Part shown: positions 1 to 54,105 of the stretch, piece by piece
How positions within the stretch are numbered: position 1 is the stretch's first letter
How the letters are laid out: the number at the start of each line of letters is the position of its first letter
Source of the DNA: a bacterium
GTDB taxonomy: Bacteria; Bacteroidota; Ignavibacteria; UBA10030
Reading direction: 5' to 3'
DNA length: 64,000 nt
Assembly: GCA_043803945.1 (NCBI GenBank)
Contig: JAZDJN010000072.1
Coordinates: 1 to 64,000 of the forward strand
Made by a program: the position numbers and the translations under genes
The notes under the pieces: generated by a model
The model's database searches: none
The model's input: the letters and a program-made list of their open reading frames with translations, nothing else
What the model was told of the DNA's origin: nothing

Positions 1-67
1 ACTCGATCTGAGACCCCCTGAACGGCTCGAATTGAAACTCAAAAATGTAGTGCCGACTTTTTAACAT
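1..67 (-). CDS. Possible 5' part of the next gene in the dnd-like operon (runs off the window)
   Basis: ATG at 67, 14 bp after the dndE stop; open to base 1 (MLKSRHYIFEFQFEPFRGSQIE); too short to assign. Confidence 0.3.
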   Translation of the reverse strand, partial: MLKSRHYIFEFQFEPFRGSQIE

Positions 68-80
68 TTATGCCCTATGC

Positions 81-515
81 TCAACGGAATCGCCATCTTT
101 TCTTCACAACTGTCGAACTTGGGCTAGCAAATGGGGCACCATATCTTTCGTTGAGCCAAGAATAAAATTGGTTAGGTTCTTGTCTGCAATCTTCGAATAT
201 TTTTTCCAAAATTTCAGCACCCGCGTTTATATGATTCACTAAGAGTTCACCCCATTCATCTTCTGAGAGCTTTCTTTTATAAGTAAAGGAGAGAAGATTT
301 TTTACAAGGTTTCGTTGCTCCTTCTCAAAATCTCGAAGCCGAAATTCTTTTCCTTGGTGATCATATTGTTCCGTCGAGAAATTGTACGCTCCCTTTTCTC
401 GCAATGAGACGGCTAAGGCTATACGTGCAATAGCTACCTTCTGTATATCCAAACGCTGTCTAAGCAAATCAAGTATTGCATCGTGTTTTTCGCTTGGATG
501 GAATCTATCTGGCAT
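81..515 (-). CDS. dndE: DndE-family DNA-binding protein
   Basis: IARIALAVSL, GKEF and late HINAGAEIL motifs typical of DndE; begins 3 bp after the dndD-like stop. Confidence 0.75.
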   Translation of the reverse strand: MPDRFHPSEKHDAILDLLRQRLDIQKVAIARIALAVSLREKGAYNFSTEQYDHQGKEFRLRDFEKEQRNLVKNLLSFTYKRKLSEDEWGELLVNHINAGAEILEKIFEDCRQEPNQFYSWLNERYGAPFASPSSTVVKKRWRFR

Positions 516-518
516 AAT

Positions 519-2540
519 CTAATCTCCGAAATATCTATTTTCAATATAAGTTGTTTCCTTTTGATTATCTCGTTTTAAAAGGAATGTCTGAACAAGATGA
601 TCATTTAGCATTTCTAAATACTCTCCAATAATTTCATCATCTTTGGAAAGTAGAATAACCTGGCTGCCAGCGATTGGAAAATATTTACTTACAACATTAG
701 GTTTATTTATTCCATCTAAATGTCCCAAAGGAAAATCTATAACAATTGGAATGGTTCTGTTAGCAGTCTTGCATAGCCCTGCAACTAAAGATATTGCATA
801 TAGCTCTTTCCCTCCATCAGAGAGATCTCTCTTGGGTAGAATTTTTCCGTCAGCTCGAATGATTTGTGTAGAATAGTCTTTAGGATCGAATCGGATTGTA
901 CCACGATACTCCTCTATAGGTTGAAGTTGATTATATAAATCAGTTGTGTGCCTCTGCAGTTCTATGAGACGTTGTTTTTTAACAATATTTATATATTCCT
1001 CAAGCAGATTGATATATTTCTTAGTATGGTTAAGAATAAACATATCCCTCTGTTGTTCGGTTTTCCTATCCTCGATTTCGGATAATTCTCTTTCCTTTTC
1101 TGTTAACTCATGATCATTTTTCTCTCGTTGAGATCGTTGATAATCTATATTTTGTTTTTCACGGCCAATTGATTTTGCGGTATCAAGTAGCTGGAAATCC
1201 AATTTCTTTAATTGACCCAACAAGTTTTCATCGAGTGTAAAACCCTGAATTTGAGAATCGAGTTTTTGAATATCCCCTTCTAGGTCAATTTGTCCATCTA
1301 TAAGGGCTTTAACATCCTTAGCGGTCGAAAGAATAGAATCAACAATTCCAATGAGATTTATTTCCTCATCTTCCGATATACTGAATATTGGCTTTGGGCC
1401 AACGTTTGCGAATGAATTTTGAATATAAATCCTCAGTTGTCCTTTTATGAGATCTGTAACAGATATCACTGCCTCTTGAGTCTGAATATTCGTGAGTTTG
1501 CATATTGCGATGCCAAGTGTGTTACCCAAATCTTCAATTATCTCATTAAGCCTCCCCGAAATCTCTTGATTAATACGAATGGTCCGTTCATTTTGAATGG
1601 CCCTTTTCATTTCGATTAAGTCTGTCCCAAGAAGAGCAAAGGGGAAGGTGGTTTGTATGAACTCTTTACATTCTTTTTGCAGCCTTTCACTCTCAATCTT
1701 CTTTCGTTCACAATCCGATACTAATTTATCTCGTTCAACCCGAGATGCAGGGTCGATCAACTTTAAAAGGTTGCTTTTGTCAACTCCTAGTCTTTGTTCC
1801 TTTTCTTTCCATTCTCTTAATTCCTTCTCGTTATTTTCTAATTCCTCATCTATTTTTTGTGCTTTATCCTCTAAGTCTTTAATGTCAGCACGCAGTCGTA
1901 ACTCTTGGCTTTCCAGATTTTCTGTTCGCTCTTCACGAATTTTTTCCACAATGTATTTCTTCAAGTGTTCACGTAGCTCTCGAAAGAGTTCAATCCCAAG
2001 TAGGATTTCTATCGAATCCTTAAGTTTTGAGACGTCTGTCTCTTCGTCAGCGAATTGTTTTATTTCTACACCATCAAAGAAAAAGAACTTGGAAGTGGAA
2101 CTCGGCACTTCACCTTCAATCCATTGCTGAATTTCTTCCTCAGAGTATGTATCAATCCTTTTTCCATCCTCATAAAGGAGTAGCGATTCTTTCATCACTA
2201 TTGGATCATCTTTTCGGATTATTCGGGATCCCTTTGGAGTCCACGCTCTTTCAATGGTGATATCATGGTCTGCATAATCTCGATAAGAGACTGCTACAGT
2301 TATATTGTAATTGCCCAACTCTCTTTGTTTATAATTTATCAATGCGGACATATCCTCTGTTCGAGGAGGGCCAAAAAAGCAATACTGTAAAGCATTAAGG
2401 AAAGTAGTCTTACCATACTGATTGTATCCGCCAATGAGGTAAATGTTCTTTCCATTTCTTTTATCCGGCTCTTCGAAGACTAATTCAGTCGGTAAACCGT
2501 AGCACCTGAAGTTATCTATCTTGACCTTTCTCAGTATCAT
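519..2540 (-). CDS. dndD: DndD-like SMC/ABC ATPase
   Basis: KIDNFRCY start, Walker A GGYNQYGKTT, FFFFDG, long coiled coil, signature LSDGGKE, Walker B IVIDFPLGHLD, KYFP..GSQVILLS; 673 aa. Confidence 0.85.
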   Translation of the reverse strand: MILRKVKIDNFRCYGLPTELVFEEPDKRNGKNIYLIGGYNQYGKTTFLNALQYCFFGPPRTEDMSALINYKQRELGNYNITVAVSYRDYADHDITIERAWTPKGSRIIRKDDPIVMKESLLLYEDGKRIDTYSEEEIQQWIEGEVPSSTSKFFFFDGVEIKQFADEETDVSKLKDSIEILLGIELFRELREHLKKYIVEKIREERTENLESQELRLRADIKDLEDKAQKIDEELENNEKELREWKEKEQRLGVDKSNLLKLIDPASRVERDKLVSDCERKKIESERLQKECKEFIQTTFPFALLGTDLIEMKRAIQNERTIRINQEISGRLNEIIEDLGNTLGIAICKLTNIQTQEAVISVTDLIKGQLRIYIQNSFANVGPKPIFSISEDEEINLIGIVDSILSTAKDVKALIDGQIDLEGDIQKLDSQIQGFTLDENLLGQLKKLDFQLLDTAKSIGREKQNIDYQRSQREKNDHELTEKERELSEIEDRKTEQQRDMFILNHTKKYINLLEEYINIVKKQRLIELQRHTTDLYNQLQPIEEYRGTIRFDPKDYSTQIIRADGKILPKRDLSDGGKELYAISLVAGLCKTANRTIPIVIDFPLGHLDGINKPNVVSKYFPIAGSQVILLSKDDEIIGEYLEMLNDHLVQTFLLKRDNQKETTYIENRYFGD

Positions 2541-2725
2541 TTTTTCTCCCCTCCTTTGGACAGGATGTCCACTTCATCCTCAATGATCTGACGCAATGAG
2601 TCAGGCAGTCCATGCTTTCTAGCCAGTCCTTGCTTTTTCCTTTCACATTCGACCATCTTCTCGATAGTCTCGTAGAGAACTCCATACTTTGTACAGAGTT
2701 CCAGTAGGGTTTGATCCTTTTTCAT
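2537..2725 (-). CDS. Small DndD-associated protein resembling the C-terminal tail of DndC
   Basis: 62 aa, LLELC..GV..ETIEKMVECERKKQGLARKHGL; ATGA overlap with dndD, whose AGGAGGG RBS lies inside this gene. Confidence 0.65.
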   Translation of the reverse strand: MKKDQTLLELCTKYGVLYETIEKMVECERKKQGLARKHGLPDSLRQIIEDEVDILSKGGEKK

Positions 2726-2814
2726 TTGCTTATTCCCTCTGATGAAGGATAATTGTATCCTAGCGCAAAAAGTCTACTTTTATTTCGTAGAACAAGCTTA
2801 CAAGTCCCGATATG

Positions 2815-3528
2815 TCAATCCCCTTCATTGCCAGAGTTGCTCACTCCCTTTGTTATATGAACAACAAAACCAGGTGGAATTGTGAGCATCGAACTTTCTG
2901 CTTCATCCCAAGCTTTTATTGCTTCAATGTAATCGTTTGAAGGTTCTGGCTCTGTTACTTGTGCCTGTCCCATCGATTCAAGGAATGGCTTTATCCTCTC
3001 ACGCAATATTGCAACCTTCTTTTCAGCTTCCTTCGAAGCCTTCAACGGTATAATCGACGGAATCTCGCTCGCCGGCTTGATAGTGCTAAAGTCCAACACA
3101 TCCCCTCTTTGCTTTACCGATTCCATTGGTTCTGTTTCGAAGTATACATAGTCCAATAACTCTTCAAGCGGTTTATTTCCCCATTGTCCAACAATCTTTT
3201 TAATAATAAGGCTTAAACTCACATCAACTTTTGGCTTATATGCTGCCATACTCTCCGCAACTCTGAAGAGGATGAGGTCTTTATCGGATTGGATCTTCAC
3301 TTCTTTCTTCTCAAATTCAGAATCTGAAAAAATACTTTCCAGTGCTAGTGCATACGGTCCGTAATGGGAGAACAGCCATTGCAAATCAGTCAACCGATTT
3401 CCATGAGCACGGTAGTGTTCAACCTCCGTGAGATAAAGTAGTTTTACTAGCTGAGTCTTTCCGAGAGAGATGTTTTGGGAGGATGCTTCGCTGAGAATTT
3501 GAAGCAAGATATCTTTAACGGTATTCAA
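2815..3528 (-). CDS. Panacea/DUF4065 (SocA/GepA-like) antitoxin-domain protein with C-terminal extension
   Basis: KTQLVKLLYL and FSHYGPY motifs; likely TTG start at 3528 (ORF open from 3582). Confidence 0.7.
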   Translation of the reverse strand: MNTVKDILLQILSEASSQNISLGKTQLVKLLYLTEVEHYRAHGNRLTDLQWLFSHYGPYALALESIFSDSEFEKKEVKIQSDKDLILFRVAESMAAYKPKVDVSLSLIIKKIVGQWGNKPLEELLDYVYFETEPMESVKQRGDVLDFSTIKPASEIPSIIPLKASKEAEKKVAILRERIKPFLESMGQAQVTEPEPSNDYIEAIKAWDEAESSMLTIPPGFVVHITKGVSNSGNEGD

Positions 3529-3609
3529 TGGTCTTCCCCAGAAGTGCAGGTAAAATTTATGCAAACTCCCTAGTAATAACAACTATGAATATCTAAACGT
3601 ACTCTCTGC

Positions 3610-3731
3610 TCACAACACCAACTCCACTTCTCTCTTCTCTCCAAACAGGATGAACTGTAATGATCAAGTAACGGTTTCCCTGCTTCGAGATATCGGTTAA
3701 TATCGCGTATTCCGTTATCGGTGAGTTTCAT
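3610..3731 (-). pseudogene. Frameshifted N-terminal remnant of a site-specific DNA methyltransferase (type III Mod-like)
   Basis: MKLTDNGIRDINRYLEAGKPLLDHY, then after a 1-nt shift FILFGEKREVELVL-stop; resembles a known Mod-like MTase N-terminus; ATG overlaps the Abi stop. Confidence 0.6.
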
Positions 3732-4630
3732 ACTTCCTTGTTTTTCCATATAGGGCTTTCTTCCCAATAATTTGGAAAGCCCATCAGTTGGGTCGAAATT
3801 TGGTGATAATTCAAAAAAAGAGTTCTTAATCTATTTTCCCAAGAACTGGTAGGTGCGTCGAATCGAAGGAGATACCGGAGGATTGTGAGGATACCAAAAA
3901 TTCTATCTCTTGTTACTTCCACAGGGAAATGCCATTCAGGATATTTTTGCTTGCGTGGGATTTTGGGCTGGTAGCCTAATACACGGTCTATTAACCGTCC
4001 ATGATGTGCACAGATGTTTCTTACGCTATTCAGCGCAATCAGCCACGAGAGAAATATTTCATCACTCACATTGTGATGGGCTGATATTATTTGTTTCAGT
4101 TTATAGTTTAGCCCACGGAACAGCGTTAGTGTTTTTCCAAAACTCATAAGTTCTACAGCCATCCACAGGGGAGGCAAAACATGCGAGTCACCATATTTTT
4201 GTTTGAAATGGATAATAAATGGCTCCGAGCATCTCTCGATTTCTTCATGCAGTTCATTAATCCATTTTTTGTGTTGTTCTCCGTTTAAACCGGGAAGAGT
4301 ACTTGGGTCTTCATACGCAAATGGGCTGTAAACATGGCAGAAGTGATATGCAATTTTTGTCCGGACAGCTACCTCAACTCGCTCAATCGCATCCATTGAT
4401 AAAAATCTCAATTGTCTATCAAAGGTATAGCGTGACCAAACAAGATCGAGAGTTGTATTCTTTTTAAACCTTTGATCCTGTGTTCGAAAAGGGTAGAGAT
4501 ATGTACTCAGTCGATAATAATTGACAACAGAAAGACGATTAACAAGAACTTCTTTATCTGCAATAAGTCCGCGGGAGAGGAGAAGATCAGCTTGTGCATC
4601 GAGGGTAAGCGGTGGTTTATCAAATTTCAT
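3728..4630 (-). CDS. Abi family (AbiD/AbiF, Abi_2) HEPN RNase
   Basis: KPPLT..Q..LL.SRGL, VNYYRLSTY, Y.FDRQLR, PPLWMAVELMSFG, HEPN R-x4-H motif RNICAHH; ATG at 4630 after GGGGTG. Confidence 0.9.
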   Translation of the reverse strand: MKFDKPPLTLDAQADLLLSRGLIADKEVLVNRLSVVNYYRLSTYLYPFRTQDQRFKKNTTLDLVWSRYTFDRQLRFLSMDAIERVEVAVRTKIAYHFCHVYSPFAYEDPSTLPGLNGEQHKKWINELHEEIERCSEPFIIHFKQKYGDSHVLPPLWMAVELMSFGKTLTLFRGLNYKLKQIISAHHNVSDEIFLSWLIALNSVRNICAHHGRLIDRVLGYQPKIPRKQKYPEWHFPVEVTRDRIFGILTILRYLLRFDAPTSSWENRLRTLFLNYHQISTQLMGFPNYWEESPIWKNKEV

Positions 4631-4640
4631 ATCACCCCGT

Positions 4641-4697
4641 ACAAAAAAAACGCCCACCGAATTTCGCATGCAAGGCAGAGGCGCGGCAGGCTTGCTG
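4641..4697 (-). ncRNA. Candidate abiF-type leader ncRNA (RNA antitoxin or attenuator)
   Basis: Minus strand GCCTGCCG pairs with CGGTGGGC (two G-U) and is followed by T8; lies between the promoter and the Abi start. Confidence 0.55.
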
Positions 4698-4701
4698 GGT
4701 T

Positions 4702-4730
4702 AATATAGCCACTGTGAAGCGAACTGTCAA
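4702..4730 (-). promoter_or_regulatory. Sigma70 promoter of the abi leader/operon
   Basis: TTGACA-17 bp-TATATT on the minus strand. Confidence 0.75.
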
Positions 4731-5015
4731 CAGGTTTTATCTTAAAGTTGATACATTCTTTCTTGTGATATATGGGCGCGTTCGAGAAATAGAATATTCG
4801 CATGCAACATCGGAATTATTTATCAAGTGTGATTTTTACAATGAACAAAATCTTTGGAATTCCGGTGGTATTAAGCTATTATCAACATAATCAAAAGCCC
4901 AACAATTAACAACAAGCTTGCAATTGCCGTGGAATACCTAGTCGCTGGGGCTCGTATTATCAGCCCCCTTCTTGAAAATTATCAAATATCCCTTGATAAC
5001 ATTTTTTGCTCCAAC

Positions 5016-51372: not shown

Positions 51373-52557
51373 TTAGAGACAAATCTTTCCAAGAATTGTT
51401 CTTCCACTGGCACCGGTGACACCAGGTAGATTCGATTCGTTCCCTGCAATTGCTTCATTCGCGAGGAGTGCAAAACAGATCGCCTCTTTTGCATCGGAAG
51501 AATAGCCGAGTGATTCCATCGGCAGCACCTCCGCATTCGAAAAATAATCTCCTAACGCTCGCATCATCACCCTATTATGGATCCCGCCGCCTCCCACCAA
51601 CAGCTCATCGACATTCATCCGATGTGCAACGAAACGGCGGTATTGATCGAAAATGGTGAGCGGAGTGAATTCGGTGAACGTTGCTATCAAATCCTCTTTT
51701 TTCTTCCGCCGCAGCTTGTTTAGTACAAGGGTAACGAACTCCGATCCAAACATTTCTCTCCCTGTAGACTTCGGGGGCTTTTCGGAAAAGTAATAATGAT
51801 ACAGCATACTGTACAAGACATCCGTAATCACTTCGCCTTTGGCGGCCACAGATCCATTTGCATCATACTCTCTCTGGTAGAGAATTTTCATCGCATTATC
51901 GATGAGCATATTTCCCGGGCCGGTATCAAACGCTCTTACATCCTCCATCGAACAGTTTTTCGGCAGAACGGTAATATTCGCGATCCCTCCAATATTCAGA
52001 ATGAGGCGGTTTTTCTTTGGAGACCGGAACAAGAGGTAATCGATATTCGGAACCAGCGGTGCGCCCTGCCCGCCCAGCGCCATATCCGCCATCCGAAAAT
52101 CGCCGACCGTCGGTATCCCGGTGAGCTTCGCGATCGTCGATGGATCGCCGATCTGCAATGTCGATCGAAATGTCTTACCGTACATTATTGAACGGATCGG
52201 CAGGTGTTGAATTGTCTGGCCATGGGAACCGATAAGATCGATCCTGGCAAGCGGCACCCCACCCTTTTTTGCAATCGCCTTTACCGCCGAAGCAAACACA
52301 TGTCCAAGCAGTACATTAAGACGACAGATATCGTCCACACTACTCGTCTTCGGGGAACAGTTTTTCAGAAGTCTTTCCTTTAATCCCTTCGGATAAGGGA
52401 AGGTCTTGAAGGACAATTGCCTGAGACGGGTTGAATGCCCGCTGCCCGAAACCCGAAGGAGGACCGCATCAATACCATCCATTGAAGTACCGGACATCAG
52501 GCCGATGATCAGTTTTGTTTGTTTCCGTTGCAGTGTACTAAGAGTTCGCTTTGCCAT
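51373..52557 (-). CDS. anmK: Anhydro-N-acetylmuramic acid kinase
   Basis: GLMSGTSMDGID, GSHGQT, GGQGAPLVP, NIGGIAN, DTGPGN, PKSTGRE, KEA..FA. Confidence 0.96.
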   Translation of the reverse strand: MAKRTLSTLQRKQTKLIIGLMSGTSMDGIDAVLLRVSGSGHSTRLRQLSFKTFPYPKGLKERLLKNCSPKTSSVDDICRLNVLLGHVFASAVKAIAKKGGVPLARIDLIGSHGQTIQHLPIRSIMYGKTFRSTLQIGDPSTIAKLTGIPTVGDFRMADMALGGQGAPLVPNIDYLLFRSPKKNRLILNIGGIANITVLPKNCSMEDVRAFDTGPGNMLIDNAMKILYQREYDANGSVAAKGEVITDVLYSMLYHYYFSEKPPKSTGREMFGSEFVTLVLNKLRRKKKEDLIATFTEFTPLTIFDQYRRFVAHRMNVDELLVGGGGIHNRVMMRALGDYFSNAEVLPMESLGYSSDAKEAICFALLANEAIAGNESNLPGVTGASGRTILGKICL

Positions 52558-52587
52558 AGTGCTCGTCTCCTTGCGTGGTTAAGACAC

Positions 52588-54105
52588 TTAGTGAGTAATC
52601 TGAAGAGGAACAGAAAGTGAATCTCGTTCAACATCCGCGCTACTGAGCGACGGATTTAATCTCCGTGCAATCGTCAAATGAATCAAAGCGCTATCACGAA
52701 TGCCCAGACCCTTGTAGGTTTGGGAGAGGCTGTAATGTGTATACCAAAGATTTGGTTGAATATCCATCGTTTGCATGAATTCAGATCTTGCCCGTTCCAG
52801 TTTTCCTTGAGCCAGCAATGCTGCACCGAGATTATGATGCGCCAGCCAGTTATTCTCAGTCTTTGCAATAGCATGTTCAAAGAGAGTAAGAGAATTTTTC
52901 CAAAATGATACCTGGCGAGCAGTAAGCATTGTGAGAACAAGGATTAGGCAGGCAGCGGAGATGGAGAGGATCGGGACTCGAAATTTCCATCGTGCAGTAA
53001 GATCGGCAATTCCCCAGCTCATGATGATAAATATCCCCAGGAGCGGAAAATAGGTATACCGATCAGCGTATGCCTGAGCACCAACCTGAACAAGGCCAAT
53101 CATTGGAATCAGCGTACCAAGATACCAGAACCAGCCAACAAAAAGGTATGGAAGATTTTTTCGATAGCGCCAGGCAAGCAGGCTAAGAATGAGGAGAAGC
53201 ACCGTGCTTCCAACGACCATAACGAACGAAATTCTCTCACTCGTATGCGGATAGAATACGGCAAGATCGACCGGCAAGAACATTTTTCGTAAATAGATCA
53301 CATACGCGAGTGCTGCGTTGGCAAATCGATCCAGGAGTGGAATTGATGTTGAGGAAGAGACCGCACCACCGCTGCGCTGAACCAGATACGTCACGATACT
53401 CGATCCGATTGCGATAAGGAATAGCGGCACCTTCTCAATCACGAGTGGAACGATTGCGGTTTTCCCTTGATCCTGAAATTCTTCGGAGGAGGATTCCTTC
53501 TGATAACTCATCCGATTCAGAGGCCAGTAATCGAGCAGCAGGAGCAAAAAGGGAAATGTAACACCGACAGGTTTTGCCAACAGGCTCATCGCGAAGGAGA
53601 CAGAGGTCCAGACCAGGTAGAGTCGTTTCTTCTCCATAGCATAGACAGAGTACCAATAAATCGAAAGGAAGATCAGAAGAGTGCTTAGAAGATCCTTGCG
53701 AGCCGAAGCCCAGGCGACAGATTCCACATGCAGTGGATGAAGTGCAAAAAGAGCTGCAACGAAGAGCGACTGCCAAATCGAATAAGTGAGTTTTCGCAGG
53801 AGAATAAACATCAGTACCGAGTTCAAAATATGGAACACCATACTCATCAAATGATGTCCAGCCGGATTCGACCCAAACCGTTGATAATCCCAGATGTGTG
53901 AAAGCCATGTCAGAGGATGCCAGTTTGATGCATAACCCGTTGAGAATGCCCAGGAAATACTCTCCAGGGTAAAACCAGTTTGGATATTGATGTTATCGAG
54001 AATATACACCGGATCATCGTAATTGACAAAGTCGTGTTCGCGCACCTGCCAGTACACGAGAAGTGTCACTAACACGAGAAGAACGATGAATCCCAAGGTT
54101 CGCAT
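52588..54105 (-). CDS. TMTC-like GT-C membrane glycosyltransferase with short TPR tail
   Basis: F.NYDD, WHPLT, LFALHPLHVESVAW...RKD, ADRYTY, W.NS..LF, AH.NLG. Confidence 0.85.
   Translation of the reverse strand: MRTLGFIVLLVLVTLLVYWQVREHDFVNYDDPVYILDNINIQTGFTLESISWAFSTGYASNWHPLTWLSHIWDYQRFGSNPAGHHLMSMVFHILNSVLMFILLRKLTYSIWQSLFVAALFALHPLHVESVAWASARKDLLSTLLIFLSIYWYSVYAMEKKRLYLVWTSVSFAMSLLAKPVGVTFPFLLLLLDYWPLNRMSYQKESSSEEFQDQGKTAIVPLVIEKVPLFLIAIGSSIVTYLVQRSGGAVSSSTSIPLLDRFANAALAYVIYLRKMFLPVDLAVFYPHTSERISFVMVVGSTVLLLILSLLAWRYRKNLPYLFVGWFWYLGTLIPMIGLVQVGAQAYADRYTYFPLLGIFIIMSWGIADLTARWKFRVPILSISAACLILVLTMLTARQVSFWKNSLTLFEHAIAKTENNWLAHHNLGAALLAQGKLERARSEFMQTMDIQPNLWYTHYSLSQTYKGLGIRDSALIHLTIARRLNPSLSSADVERDSLSVPLQITH

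What the first reader, a model, noticed from the sequence alone, without database searches (positions are those of the whole stretch)
81..2725. dndD-dndE module headed by a stand-alone DndC-tail-like microprotein instead of dndC
Seen: tightly coupled order of 62-aa protein, dndD, dndE, then a further ORF off the edge. The slot upstream of dndD holds no PAPS-reductase-like gene, and no cysteine desulfurase or DndB is in the window. Known: canonical phosphorothioation loci are dnd(A)BCDE, with DndC doing the sulfur chemistry. Inference: the microprotein resembles the helical end of DndC and may be only a DndD-docking element. The SMC-like DndD/DndE scanner could then be coupled to a different effector, making a sulfur-independent defence system.
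Basis: partly seen in the sequence, partly recalled or inferred. Interest (0 to 1): 0.75.

Follow-up and report, generated by a model that had tools for sequence, protein, structure and literature searches.

The report
IS-split DndC-less Dnd-like defence module
A three-gene relative of the DNA-phosphorothioation machinery that lacks the sulfur enzyme DndC and keeps only a DndC-tail-like 62-residue protein; it is of a kind already catalogued, and here its third gene is cut in two by a jumping element.

Summary
The three minus-strand ORFs exist and are tightly coupled: a 62-aa protein (2725..2537), DndD (2540..519) and a DndE-like ORF (515..81). The assembly has no dndC or dndB. The microprotein does resemble the last ~50 residues of DndC.

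Two parts of the observation are wrong. The "dndE" is only the first ~130 codons of a ~515-codon gene that fuses DndE to a HerA/FtsK-type ATPase. An insertion sequence (window 1-123, 4-bp duplication CTAG at 124-127) cuts it. The other half lies at the end of contig C40. The "ORF off the edge" lies inside that insertion sequence.

The closest intact homologue is 513 aa and matches both halves (85% and 89% identity). Metagenome contigs of relatives read straight across the insertion point.

The small protein is weakly Pfam PF20306 (Sp-DndD). Stand-alone copies sit just upstream of dndD in other genomes, two of which also lack dndC. DndC-less DndD-DndE cores and DndE::HerA/FtsK fusions are already in print (Rakesh et al. 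2024).

Verdict: a new, IS-disrupted member of a known but untested kind. The DndC-tail homology is the one point I could not find in print. Docking on DndD has only weak model support (0.49 against a best control of 0.00).

The parts
1..123 (.). Terminal 123 bases of an insertion sequence of the DDE (IS4/IS5/IS1634-like) type. The contig starts inside it. The + strand 2-61 plus stop 62-64 is the 3' end of its transposase gene.
   Evidence: The same end recurs at >=95% identity in 7 other contigs, mostly at contig ends. Its interior encodes a transposase C-terminus. A related full copy on C87 encodes a 606-aa protein with DDE_Tnp_1 and DUF4277. The core end is defined by aligning 8 copies.
124..127 (.). 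Target-site duplication CTAG of the IS. The second copy lies at the C40 junction.
   Evidence: All 8 copies of this end and all 10 copies of the other end are followed by YTAR. Both junctions of this insertion read CTAG. Relatives' contigs carry the C40-like sequence directly in front of window 124 (table 7).
81..515 (-). 5' part of a split DndE::HerA/FtsK gene. Codons 1 to about 130 are native (DndE domain, residues 5-105). The last 13-15 codons and the stop come from the IS. The 3' part is on contig C40 (C40:70299-71477, minus strand; L041:18300-19478).
   Evidence: PF08870, 34.1 bits. P0030 (513 aa) aligns at 1-131 with this ORF (85% identity) and at 130-513 with the C40 ORF (89% identity). 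The C40 ORF has HerA/FtsK-type hits.
519..2540 (-). [quoted passage not shown] It has a Walker A at residue 38 and LSDG at 573, and no CxC motif.
   Evidence: TIGR03185, 263.5 bits, above the 245.85 cut-off. PADLOC DndD, 305.8 bits. Motif scan.
2537..2725 (-). Sp-DndD-like microprotein of 62 aa, predicted to form three helices. It is a homologue of the C-terminal ~50 residues of DndC. Its stop overlaps the dndD start (ATGA).
   Evidence: HMM hits at DndC C-termini. (hhalign, SP 6-53 against DndC 393-440 of 450, E 4.9e-4, probability 31.8%). (helices 7-13, 18-38, 42-58; mean pLDDT 73). (7 stand-alone homologues of 59-67 aa).
2815..3582 (-). Neighbour, not shown to belong: a 255-aa SocA/Panacea-domain protein, 90 nt upstream of the microprotein gene.
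   Evidence: PF13274, 29.7 bits. In run X1 a relative's contig stops resembling the window just beyond 2736, so the linkage is not conserved there.
3728..4669 (-). Neighbour, not shown to belong: a 313-aa AbiD/Abi_2 abortive-infection-type protein.
   Evidence: PF07751, 175.9 bits. PADLOC AbiD, 232.6 bits.

Best explanation
This is a horizontally acquired three-gene module: Sp-DndD microprotein, then DndD ABC ATPase, then DndE fused to a DndH-type HerA/FtsK ATPase. It is the DndC-less form of a Dnd variant. In this genome a simple IS insertion with a CTAG duplication has cut the third gene in the linker between the DndE domain and the ATPase. The two halves therefore lie at the start of contig C72 and the end of contig C40.

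SHOWN: the gene content, the split, the absence of dndC, the likeness of the microprotein to the DndC tail, and its conservation as a free-standing gene.

INFERRED MECHANISM. The microprotein is the detached DndD-binding tail of DndC. It was kept because DndD needs it for assembly or control. DndD and the DndE domain scan DNA, as proposed for Dnd cores (PMC10853773). The fused HerA/FtsK motor supplies DNA translocation in place of sulfur insertion. This would make the module a defence or DNA-handling device that does not use phosphorothioate.

In this strain the IS probably disables or at least uncouples the motor half. The N-terminal product, a DndE domain with a short IS-coded tail, may still be made.
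For: SPLIT GENE.
- A representative-library search with the 144-aa ORF found 11 proteins at E <= 0.001. The best is P0030, 513 aa, 85% identical over residues 1-131.
- P0030 residues 130-513 are 89% identical to the ORF at the end of C40.
- That ORF carries HerA/FtsK/TrwB-type hits. P0030 matches the C-terminal ~380 positions of PADLOC DndH (125.6 bits).
- The IS junctions on both contigs read CTAG, within a YTAR rule seen at 18 of 18 copy ends.
- Contigs of relatives in runs X2 and X3 (one soil sample) continue leftwards from window 124 into 30 letters that match the C40 end at 29 of 30 by my comparison.

NO DndC. NO DndB.

TAIL HOMOLOGY.
- Six DndC models and PF20306 all hit the microprotein co-linearly at the DndC C-terminus.
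- hhalign gave E 4.9e-4.
- In reverse, PF20306 hits the last ~50 residues of 450-453-aa frames directly upstream of dndD in 3 genomes, and of a Rhizobium DndC (19.4 bits).

A REAL GENE, NOT DEBRIS.
- Seven homologues of 59-67 aa are 81-94% identical.
- Two of them come from contigs of the same length and source (8185 nt jgi; 5495 nt lgn) as DndD homologues that are 80% and 68% identical.

A RECURRENT KIND.
- 14 DndD loci were found in 13 of 400 other genomes of the phylum.
- 3 of the 14 have a 60-72-aa PF20306 protein upstream and 11 have a 436-454-aa DndC.
- 11 of the 14 have a 517-531-aa ORF downstream that matches the HerA half.
- G187 and G239 have the small-protein form and no dndC. G275 has both forms.

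DOCKING. Co-folding scored 0.49 against a best control of 0.00. The tool's verdict was 'weak support'. That mark was reached by 58 of 80 solved complexes and 2 of 110 mismatched pairs, but scores of 0.60 or under were seen in only 7 of those 80. Runs agreed in at least 98% of contacts, and the partner's pLDDT was at least 68. phmmer found no solved DndD or DndC relative, so recall of a solved complex is unlikely.

FOREIGN ORIGIN. GC is 35-42% over window 1-5000 and the C40 end, against 46.5% for the genome.
Against: - The microprotein is below the PF20306 cut-off (20.5 against 27.2). The hhalign probability is only 31.8%, so the tail homology rests on many weak but concordant hits.
- The link between small-protein homologues and DndD homologues on shared contigs is inferred from equal contig length and source. 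I did not see the contigs.
- That one IS copy joins C72 and C40 is inferred from complementary halves and a matching duplication. No read spans the IS.
- Of the 11 homologues of the DndE part, only 3 are about 510 aa. The other 8 are 152-300 aa, so stand-alone or other forms of this DndE type exist too.
- In L038 the 531-aa downstream protein shows HerA hits but no Pfam DndE hit.
- Nothing here shows activity, defence, or the absence of phosphorothioate. No nuclease was found in the module.
- The other small-protein loci carry further upstream partners that have no homologue in this genome: a 734/746-aa HTH/HA-domain protein, or a methylase plus a ResIII helicase. The module here may therefore lack a partner.
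Confidence: 0.8

Rival explanations
1. Decay product. The 62-aa ORF is just the leftover 3' end of a deleted dndC in a dying dnd operon, which an IS has also hit. It has no function of its own.
For: It aligns only with the DndC tail. The locus carries an IS insertion. A different gene pair lies where dndC would be.
Against: Seven homologues keep the same start and a length of 59-67 aa at 81-94% identity. That is at least as conserved as the DndD proteins inferred to share their contigs (80% and 68%). A curated family of free-standing small proteins holds the same slot in other lineages. Only 90 nt separate it from the next gene, and the HMM search found no other dndC remnant.
Confidence: 0.08
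2. Regulator rather than adaptor. The small protein is a negative regulator or a sensor of phage triggers, as proposed for the small proteins of CxC/Pbe systems. It would not be a structural DndD-docking piece inherited from DndC.
For: PMC10853773 (section 16, read) proposes this role for the small protein of CxC systems. The small proteins of L037, L038 and L039 are very unlike the window's (alignment), which fits fast evolution across lineages.
Against: The window's protein gives no hit to PF20304 Sp-CxC, whereas a Pbe-type small protein does (41 bits). Within its own clade it is well conserved and predicted to be helical, not disordered. Co-folding with DndD gave weak support. The two roles do not exclude each other.
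Confidence: 0.2
3. Still a modification system. DndD and DndE recruit some other modifying enzyme encoded elsewhere (for example a methylase), and the module marks DNA rather than attacking it.
For: PMC10853773 (sections 12, 24 and 25, passages read) raises alternative modifications for cores lacking DndC. One small-protein locus (L038) has an N6/N4 methylase and a ResIII helicase upstream. Methylase homologues exist elsewhere in this genome.
Against: No methylase lies next to the module in the window or on the C40 side. Nothing links the distant methylases to it.
Confidence: 0.1
4. The IS insertion is tolerated. It un-fuses the gene into a stand-alone DndE-like protein and a separately expressed HerA/FtsK ATPase, and the system still works.
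For: The cut falls in the linker after the complete DndE domain. Both halves keep open frames and 85-89% identity to the intact homologue. Stand-alone DndE is the canonical form.
Against: The ATPase half has lost its start and its upstream operon. No promoter was shown. No RNA run holding this stretch was available.
Confidence: 0.2

Closest known systems
Sp-DndD / DndD / DndE::HerA-FtsK systems (Pfam PF20306; Krishnan et al. NAR 2020, as cited in Rakesh et al. NAR 2024, PMC10853773 section 22)
   Same: A small protein lies directly upstream of a DndD-clade ATPase, followed by DndE fused to a HerA/FtsK ATPase, with no DndC. I saw the same layout in L037, L038 and L039.
   Different: The window's small protein is below the PF20306 cut-off and looks more like DndC tails than like those family members. 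Its DndD is only 21-28% identical to theirs. The third gene is split by an IS. The upstream partners seen in those loci are absent.
Canonical DndABCDE phosphorothioation module
   Same: DndD passes the DndD equivalog, and a DndE domain is present and tightly coupled to it. The small protein equals the tail of DndC.
   Different: There is no DndC PP-loop enzyme and no DndB in the assembly. DndE is fused to an ATPase rather than free, as it is for example on the Rhizobium plasmid.
PbeABCD / CxC-ATPase systems
   Same: The order is small protein, then coiled-coil ABC ATPase, then DndE-like protein. PADLOC PbeC models score nearly as high as DndD models (285.9 against 305.8 bits).
   Different: The ATPase has no CxC motif. 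There is no PF20304 Sp-CxC hit. No HKD-helicase PbeA lies upstream.
DndH (DptH) of DndFGH
   Same: The HerA/FtsK half matches the C-terminal ~380 positions of DndH models and plasmid DptH genes at 26-27% identity.
   Different: Only the motor domain is shared. The rest of DndH is missing. I did not search for DndF or DndG.

Membership tests
Canonical Dnd PT-modification system | DndC PP-loop sulfurtransferase present | tested here: not met
   TIGR03183 over the whole assembly hit only the 62-aa ORF (12.9 bits). tblastn with 11 DndC proteins gave a best E of 0.02.
Canonical Dnd PT-modification system | DndD equivalog | tested here: met
   TIGR03185, 263.5 bits against a cut-off of 245.85.
Canonical Dnd PT-modification system | Free-standing DndE | tested here: not met
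   The Pfam DndE domain is met (34.1 against 25). The NCBIfam equivalog is below cut-off (29.6 against 71.85). The gene is natively a ~513-aa fusion.
Canonical Dnd PT-modification system | Phosphorothioate in the DNA | not testable with these tools
   Needs LC-MS/MS or iodine cleavage of the strain's DNA.
Pfam PF20306 Sp-DndD | Score at or above the gathering cut-off | tested here: not met
   20.5 bits against 27.2. One 90%-identical homologue (P0025) carries a precomputed PF20306 label.
Pfam PF20306 Sp-DndD | About 60 aa, free-standing, immediately upstream of dndD | tested here: met
   62 aa with an ATGA overlap with dndD. The same position is seen in G187, G239 and G275.
DndE::HerA/FtsK variant (clade-3 HerA/FtsK of Rakesh et al. 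2024) | DndE and HerA/FtsK in one polypeptide next to a DndD-related ATPase | tested here: inconclusive
   Met in the intact homologue P0030. Here the two domains are on separate contigs, split by an IS. I did not test clade placement.
PbeABCD / CxC system | CxC Zn-hook ATPase, Sp-CxC small protein, HKD-helicase PbeA | tested here: not met
   No C-x-C in the ATPase. No PF20304 hit. The upstream genes are a Panacea-domain protein and AbiD.
DndFGH | DndF, DndG and full-length DndH | not tested
   Only a DndH-like motor domain was seen. I ran no DndF or DndG search.

The most novel reading that the evidence does not exclude
Sp-DndD proteins are detached DndC tails: a portable peptide that binds and licenses DndD. 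On this reading the DndD/DndE scanner was re-used without sulfur chemistry and coupled through the fused DndH-type HerA/FtsK pump. The result would be a phosphorothioate-independent, nuclease-free DNA-scanning-and-pumping defence module. The tail would then also be the handle by which DndC docks on DndD in canonical systems.
Probability: 0.3. Interest if true: 0.55.

Novelty: new member of a known kind. Interest (0 to 1): 0.3.

Why it matters
No DndC-less DndD-DndE system has been tested at the bench, as far as the papers I could search show. How DndC is held on DndD is also unknown: phmmer found no solved relative of either protein.

The likeness between the free small protein and the DndC tail gives a concrete, cheap hypothesis for both questions: a ~50-residue docking helix bundle.

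This genome's copy is a poor test object because an IS has split its third gene. Intact relatives exist (P0030 with its partners; G187 and G239). For annotation, the lesson is practical. A 'DndE' at a contig edge can be the head of a DndE::HerA/FtsK gene, and a small ORF before dndD should not be discarded.

Tried and rejected
CONTEXT OF CLOSE RELATIVES.
- The search for related loci with the DndD protein or its 5-row alignment found nothing in genome contigs or viral contigs.
- In metagenome contigs it found one error-ridden 2057-nt contig (L025).
- I therefore could not read the gene context of the closest relatives.

OTHER SEARCHES THAT LED NOWHERE.
- The search for homologous proteins with the 144-aa ORF, limited to 79-252 aa, returned only the L025 fragment. 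The full-length relatives are about 510 aa.
- The eLife 2020 paper PMC7159879 has no Dnd text.
- Krishnan et al. 2020 (PMC7544218, doi 10.1093/nar/gkaa726) is not held.
- No RNA holder was listed for this stretch.

NOT USED AS EVIDENCE.
- Promoter and terminator scans gave counts no higher than shuffles (13 against 12.8; 3 against 4.2).
- On the DndD tree (24 rows, quick method) the 11 DndC-linked proteins sit on one side of a branch, with small-protein-linked rows outside. The tree has long branches (L038 3.7) and 7 unlabelled rows. I draw no conclusion from it on single or repeated origin.
- Four further PF20306 hits (G212, G237, G080, G233) cover at most 36 of 51 profile positions inside 296-748-aa frames, and are not beside a DndD hit. 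I treated them as chance.

REJECTED: membership of the Pbe/CxC system (no CxC motif, no Sp-CxC hit, no PbeA).
Full report
WHAT IS IN THE SEQUENCE.
The minus strand of the window's first 2.7 kb holds three ORFs:
- a 62-aa ORF at 2725..2537;
- a 673-aa ORF at 2540..519;
- a 144-aa ORF at 515..81.
The first two overlap by ATGA. The second and third are 3 nt apart.

The 673-aa protein is a DndD. It scores 263.5 bits on TIGR03185 (cut-off 245.85) and 305.8 bits on PADLOC DndD. It has a Walker A at residue 38, LSDG at 573, and no C-x-C motif. The 144-aa ORF has a Pfam DndE domain at residues 5-105 (34.1 bits, cut-off 25).

The 62-aa protein hits nothing except the very end of DndC models and, below threshold, PF20306:
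- TIGR03183, positions 401-446 of 447, and NF005316, positions 410-458 of 505;
- four PADLOC DndC models, best E 3.7e-6;
- Pfam PF20306 'Sp-DndD', 20.5 bits against 27.2.

THE EDGE OF THE WINDOW IS AN INSERTION SEQUENCE.
The window is the start of contig C72. Its first ~127 bases recur at >=95% identity in 7 other contigs, mostly at contig ends. They continue into the C-terminus of a DDE transposase. A related full copy on C87 encodes a 606-aa DDE_Tnp_1/DUF4277 protein.

Aligning the copies puts the core IS end at window 123, followed by YTAR in 8 of 8 copies of this end and 10 of 10 copies of the other end. The last 13-15 codons and the stop of the 'dndE' ORF are therefore IS sequence. The 'further ORF off the edge' is an antisense frame inside the IS. 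The transposase's own last 20 codons are on the + strand at 2-61, with the stop at 62-64.

THE 'dndE' IS THE HEAD OF A SPLIT FUSION GENE.
A search of 1.84 billion representatives with the 144-aa ORF found 11 proteins at E <= 0.001. The best, P0030, is 513 aa and 85% identical over residues 1-131. Two more are 508-517 aa and eight are 152-300 aa.

Proteins of 517-531 aa that follow dndD in other genomes combine an N-terminal DndE domain with a HerA/FtsK-type ATPase. tblastn with four of them hit one place in this genome: the last ~1.3 kb of contig C40. The open frame there (L041:18300-19478, minus strand) is 89% identical to P0030 residues 130-513. It carries HerA/FtsK/TrwB-type hits. P0030 matches the C-terminal ~380 positions of PADLOC DndH models (125.6 bits).

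The C40 contig then ends in the other end of the same IS. Both junctions carry CTAG.

Independent support comes from metagenome contigs of relatives. In runs X2 and X3 (one soil sample) they run from window 124 leftwards into 30 letters that match the C40 side at 29 of 30, by my comparison. A 3506-nt contig in run X1 extends 1412 nt beyond window 142.

So one IS inserted into the linker between the DndE domain and the ATPase of a ~515-codon gene. Both halves are otherwise open. That a single IS copy joins the two contigs is inferred. No read spans it.

NO DndC, NO DndB.
The TIGR03183 search of the whole assembly (completeness 100%, 118 contigs) found only the microprotein. tblastn with 11 DndC proteins gave nothing better than E 0.02. 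PF14072 (DndB) gave nothing. An assembly gap cannot be excluded.

THE MICROPROTEIN IS A REAL, CONSERVED GENE AND A DndC-TAIL HOMOLOGUE.
Seven homologues of 59-67 aa, 81-94% identical, exist in the 5.8-billion-protein collection. Two of them come from contigs of the same length and source (8185 nt, 5495 nt) as DndD homologues that are 80% and 68% identical. I infer they share contigs but did not see the contigs.

A profile of the eight small proteins aligns with a profile of 11 DndC proteins at DndC positions 393-440 of 450 (hhalign E 4.9e-4, probability 31.8%). The alignment shows the shared pattern, including an R-K-[RH]-G-L core.

In the reverse direction, PF20306 searched over 401 genomes of the phylum hit 11 (2 above cut-off), as follows:
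- Four hits are short frames directly upstream of dndD (G000, G187, G239, G275).
- Three are the last ~50 residues of 450-453-aa frames directly upstream of dndD (G151, G243, G383).
- Four are partial hits elsewhere, which I regard as chance.
A Rhizobium plasmid DndC also gives a sub-threshold PF20306 hit at residues 405-448.

AlphaFold2 predicts three helices for the microprotein (mean pLDDT 73).

HOW COMMON, AND WITH WHAT.
The window's DndD has few close relatives: four at 47-81% identity in 5.8 billion proteins. It is 21-28% identical to the DndDs of its own phylum. The module's GC is 35-42% against 46.5% for the genome. It is therefore an import.

There were 14 DndD loci in 13 of 400 other genomes sampled from the phylum:
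- 11 have a 436-454-aa DndC upstream. They are aligned. PAPS_reduct was confirmed for one and TIGR03183 for one.
- 3 have a 60-72-aa PF20306 protein upstream.
- 11 of the 14 have the 517-531-aa downstream ORF. In L038 Pfam saw only the HerA part.
G187 and G239 have the small-protein form and no dndC. G275 has both forms.

The three small-protein loci carry extra upstream genes. Two have a 734/746-aa protein with HTH, HhH-like and HA domains. One has a methylase, a ResIII helicase and RhuM. None of these has a homologue next to the module here, and the 734-aa type has none in this genome.

In the window the upstream genes are a Panacea-domain protein and AbiD. In run X1 the likeness to the window ends just beyond 2736. 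The three genes therefore look like the unit.

MECHANISM.
Shown: the composition, and the absence of the sulfur enzyme.
Inferred:
- The tail of DndC is what holds DndC on DndD, and it survives as a separate peptide because DndD needs it.
- DndD and DndE scan DNA, following the model of PMC10853773.
- The fused DndH-type motor translocates DNA.

One co-folding job of DndD with the microprotein scored 0.49 (best control 0.00). The tool's verdict was 'weak support'. That mark was reached by 58 of 80 solved complexes and 2 of 110 mismatches, but scores of 0.60 or under were seen in only 7 of those 80. Runs agreed in at least 98% of contacts, and the partner's pLDDT was at least 68. phmmer found no solved relative of DndD or DndC.

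In this strain the IS probably uncouples or silences the motor half.

COMPARISON WITH WHAT IS KNOWN.
From Rakesh, Aravind and Krishnan 2024 (PMC10853773) I read the outline, sections 14, 16 and 22, and searched passages. The paper states the following:
- The DndD-DndE pair is the core of the system.
- DndC is present in 70% of taxa that have the system.
- Systems lacking DndC may use another modification or mechanism.
[quoted passage not shown] This is credited to Krishnan et al. 2020, which I could not obtain.

The small proteins it discusses are those of CxC/Pbe systems. That is a different Pfam family (PF20304), which the window's protein does not hit.

'Sp-DndD' occurs in no paper of the searchable library. 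Only PMC10853773 holds DndD, DndE, HerA and 'small protein' together. My phrase searches of its main text found no mention of a DndC C-terminal tail. I therefore cannot say the tail homology is unpublished, only that I did not find it.

VERDICT.
This is a genuine DndC-less Dnd-like module of a catalogued but experimentally untested kind. It belongs to a rare subclade and is broken here by an IS. The gene model at the window edge, the claim of a missing effector, and the degree of novelty do not.

Noticed in passing
window 2815-4669, minus strand: A Panacea (SocA-like) domain protein of 255 aa and an AbiD/Abi_2 protein of 313 aa lie just upstream on the same strand and in the same low-GC stretch. 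The best promoter-like site in the first 5.1 kb (11 of 12 matches) is at 4730-4702, in front of AbiD. They may form a toxin-antitoxin or abortive-infection pair of their own.
   Followed up: partly
window 1-127; G000 contigs C58, C98, C64, C85, C14, C116, C79, and C40, C111, C113, C46, C107, C89, C62, C114, C112: An IS of about 1.9 kb with YTAR 4-bp duplications is present in roughly 8-10 near-identical copies. It accounts for many contig breaks in this assembly. A 78%-identical relative lies whole on C87 at about 51,900-53,800.
   Followed up: partly
L041:16050-17772 (G000:C40:68049-69771), minus strand: Downstream of the HerA/FtsK half lie a 330-aa ClpP-like SDH-type serine protease (PF01972) and a 187-aa protein with no family hit. 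Neither has a PADLOC hit. They may be another island gene pair.
   Followed up: partly
L037:7750-9954 and L039:10195-12435: In two small-protein-type loci of another genus, a conserved 734/746-aa protein (54% identical) overlaps the start of the Sp-DndD gene. It has sigma-70 region 4 HTH, RNAP alpha-CTD-like and helicase-associated (HA) domains, and no PADLOC hit. It is a candidate fourth component of that variant.
   Followed up: partly
L039:3202-6189: Directly downstream of the DndE::HerA gene in G239 lies a 995-aa protein that matches PADLOC MkoC (Mokosh) at 969 bits. This indicates a defence-island context.
   Followed up: no
L053 (Rhizobium leguminosarum plasmid NZ_CP007048.1, 258610-272547): A canonical dndBCDE plus cysteine desulfurase cluster lies back to back with a Pbe/CxC set (helicase, Sp-CxC small protein, 659-aa ATPase, 160-aa protein). 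This is the tandem arrangement described in PMC10853773.
   Followed up: partly
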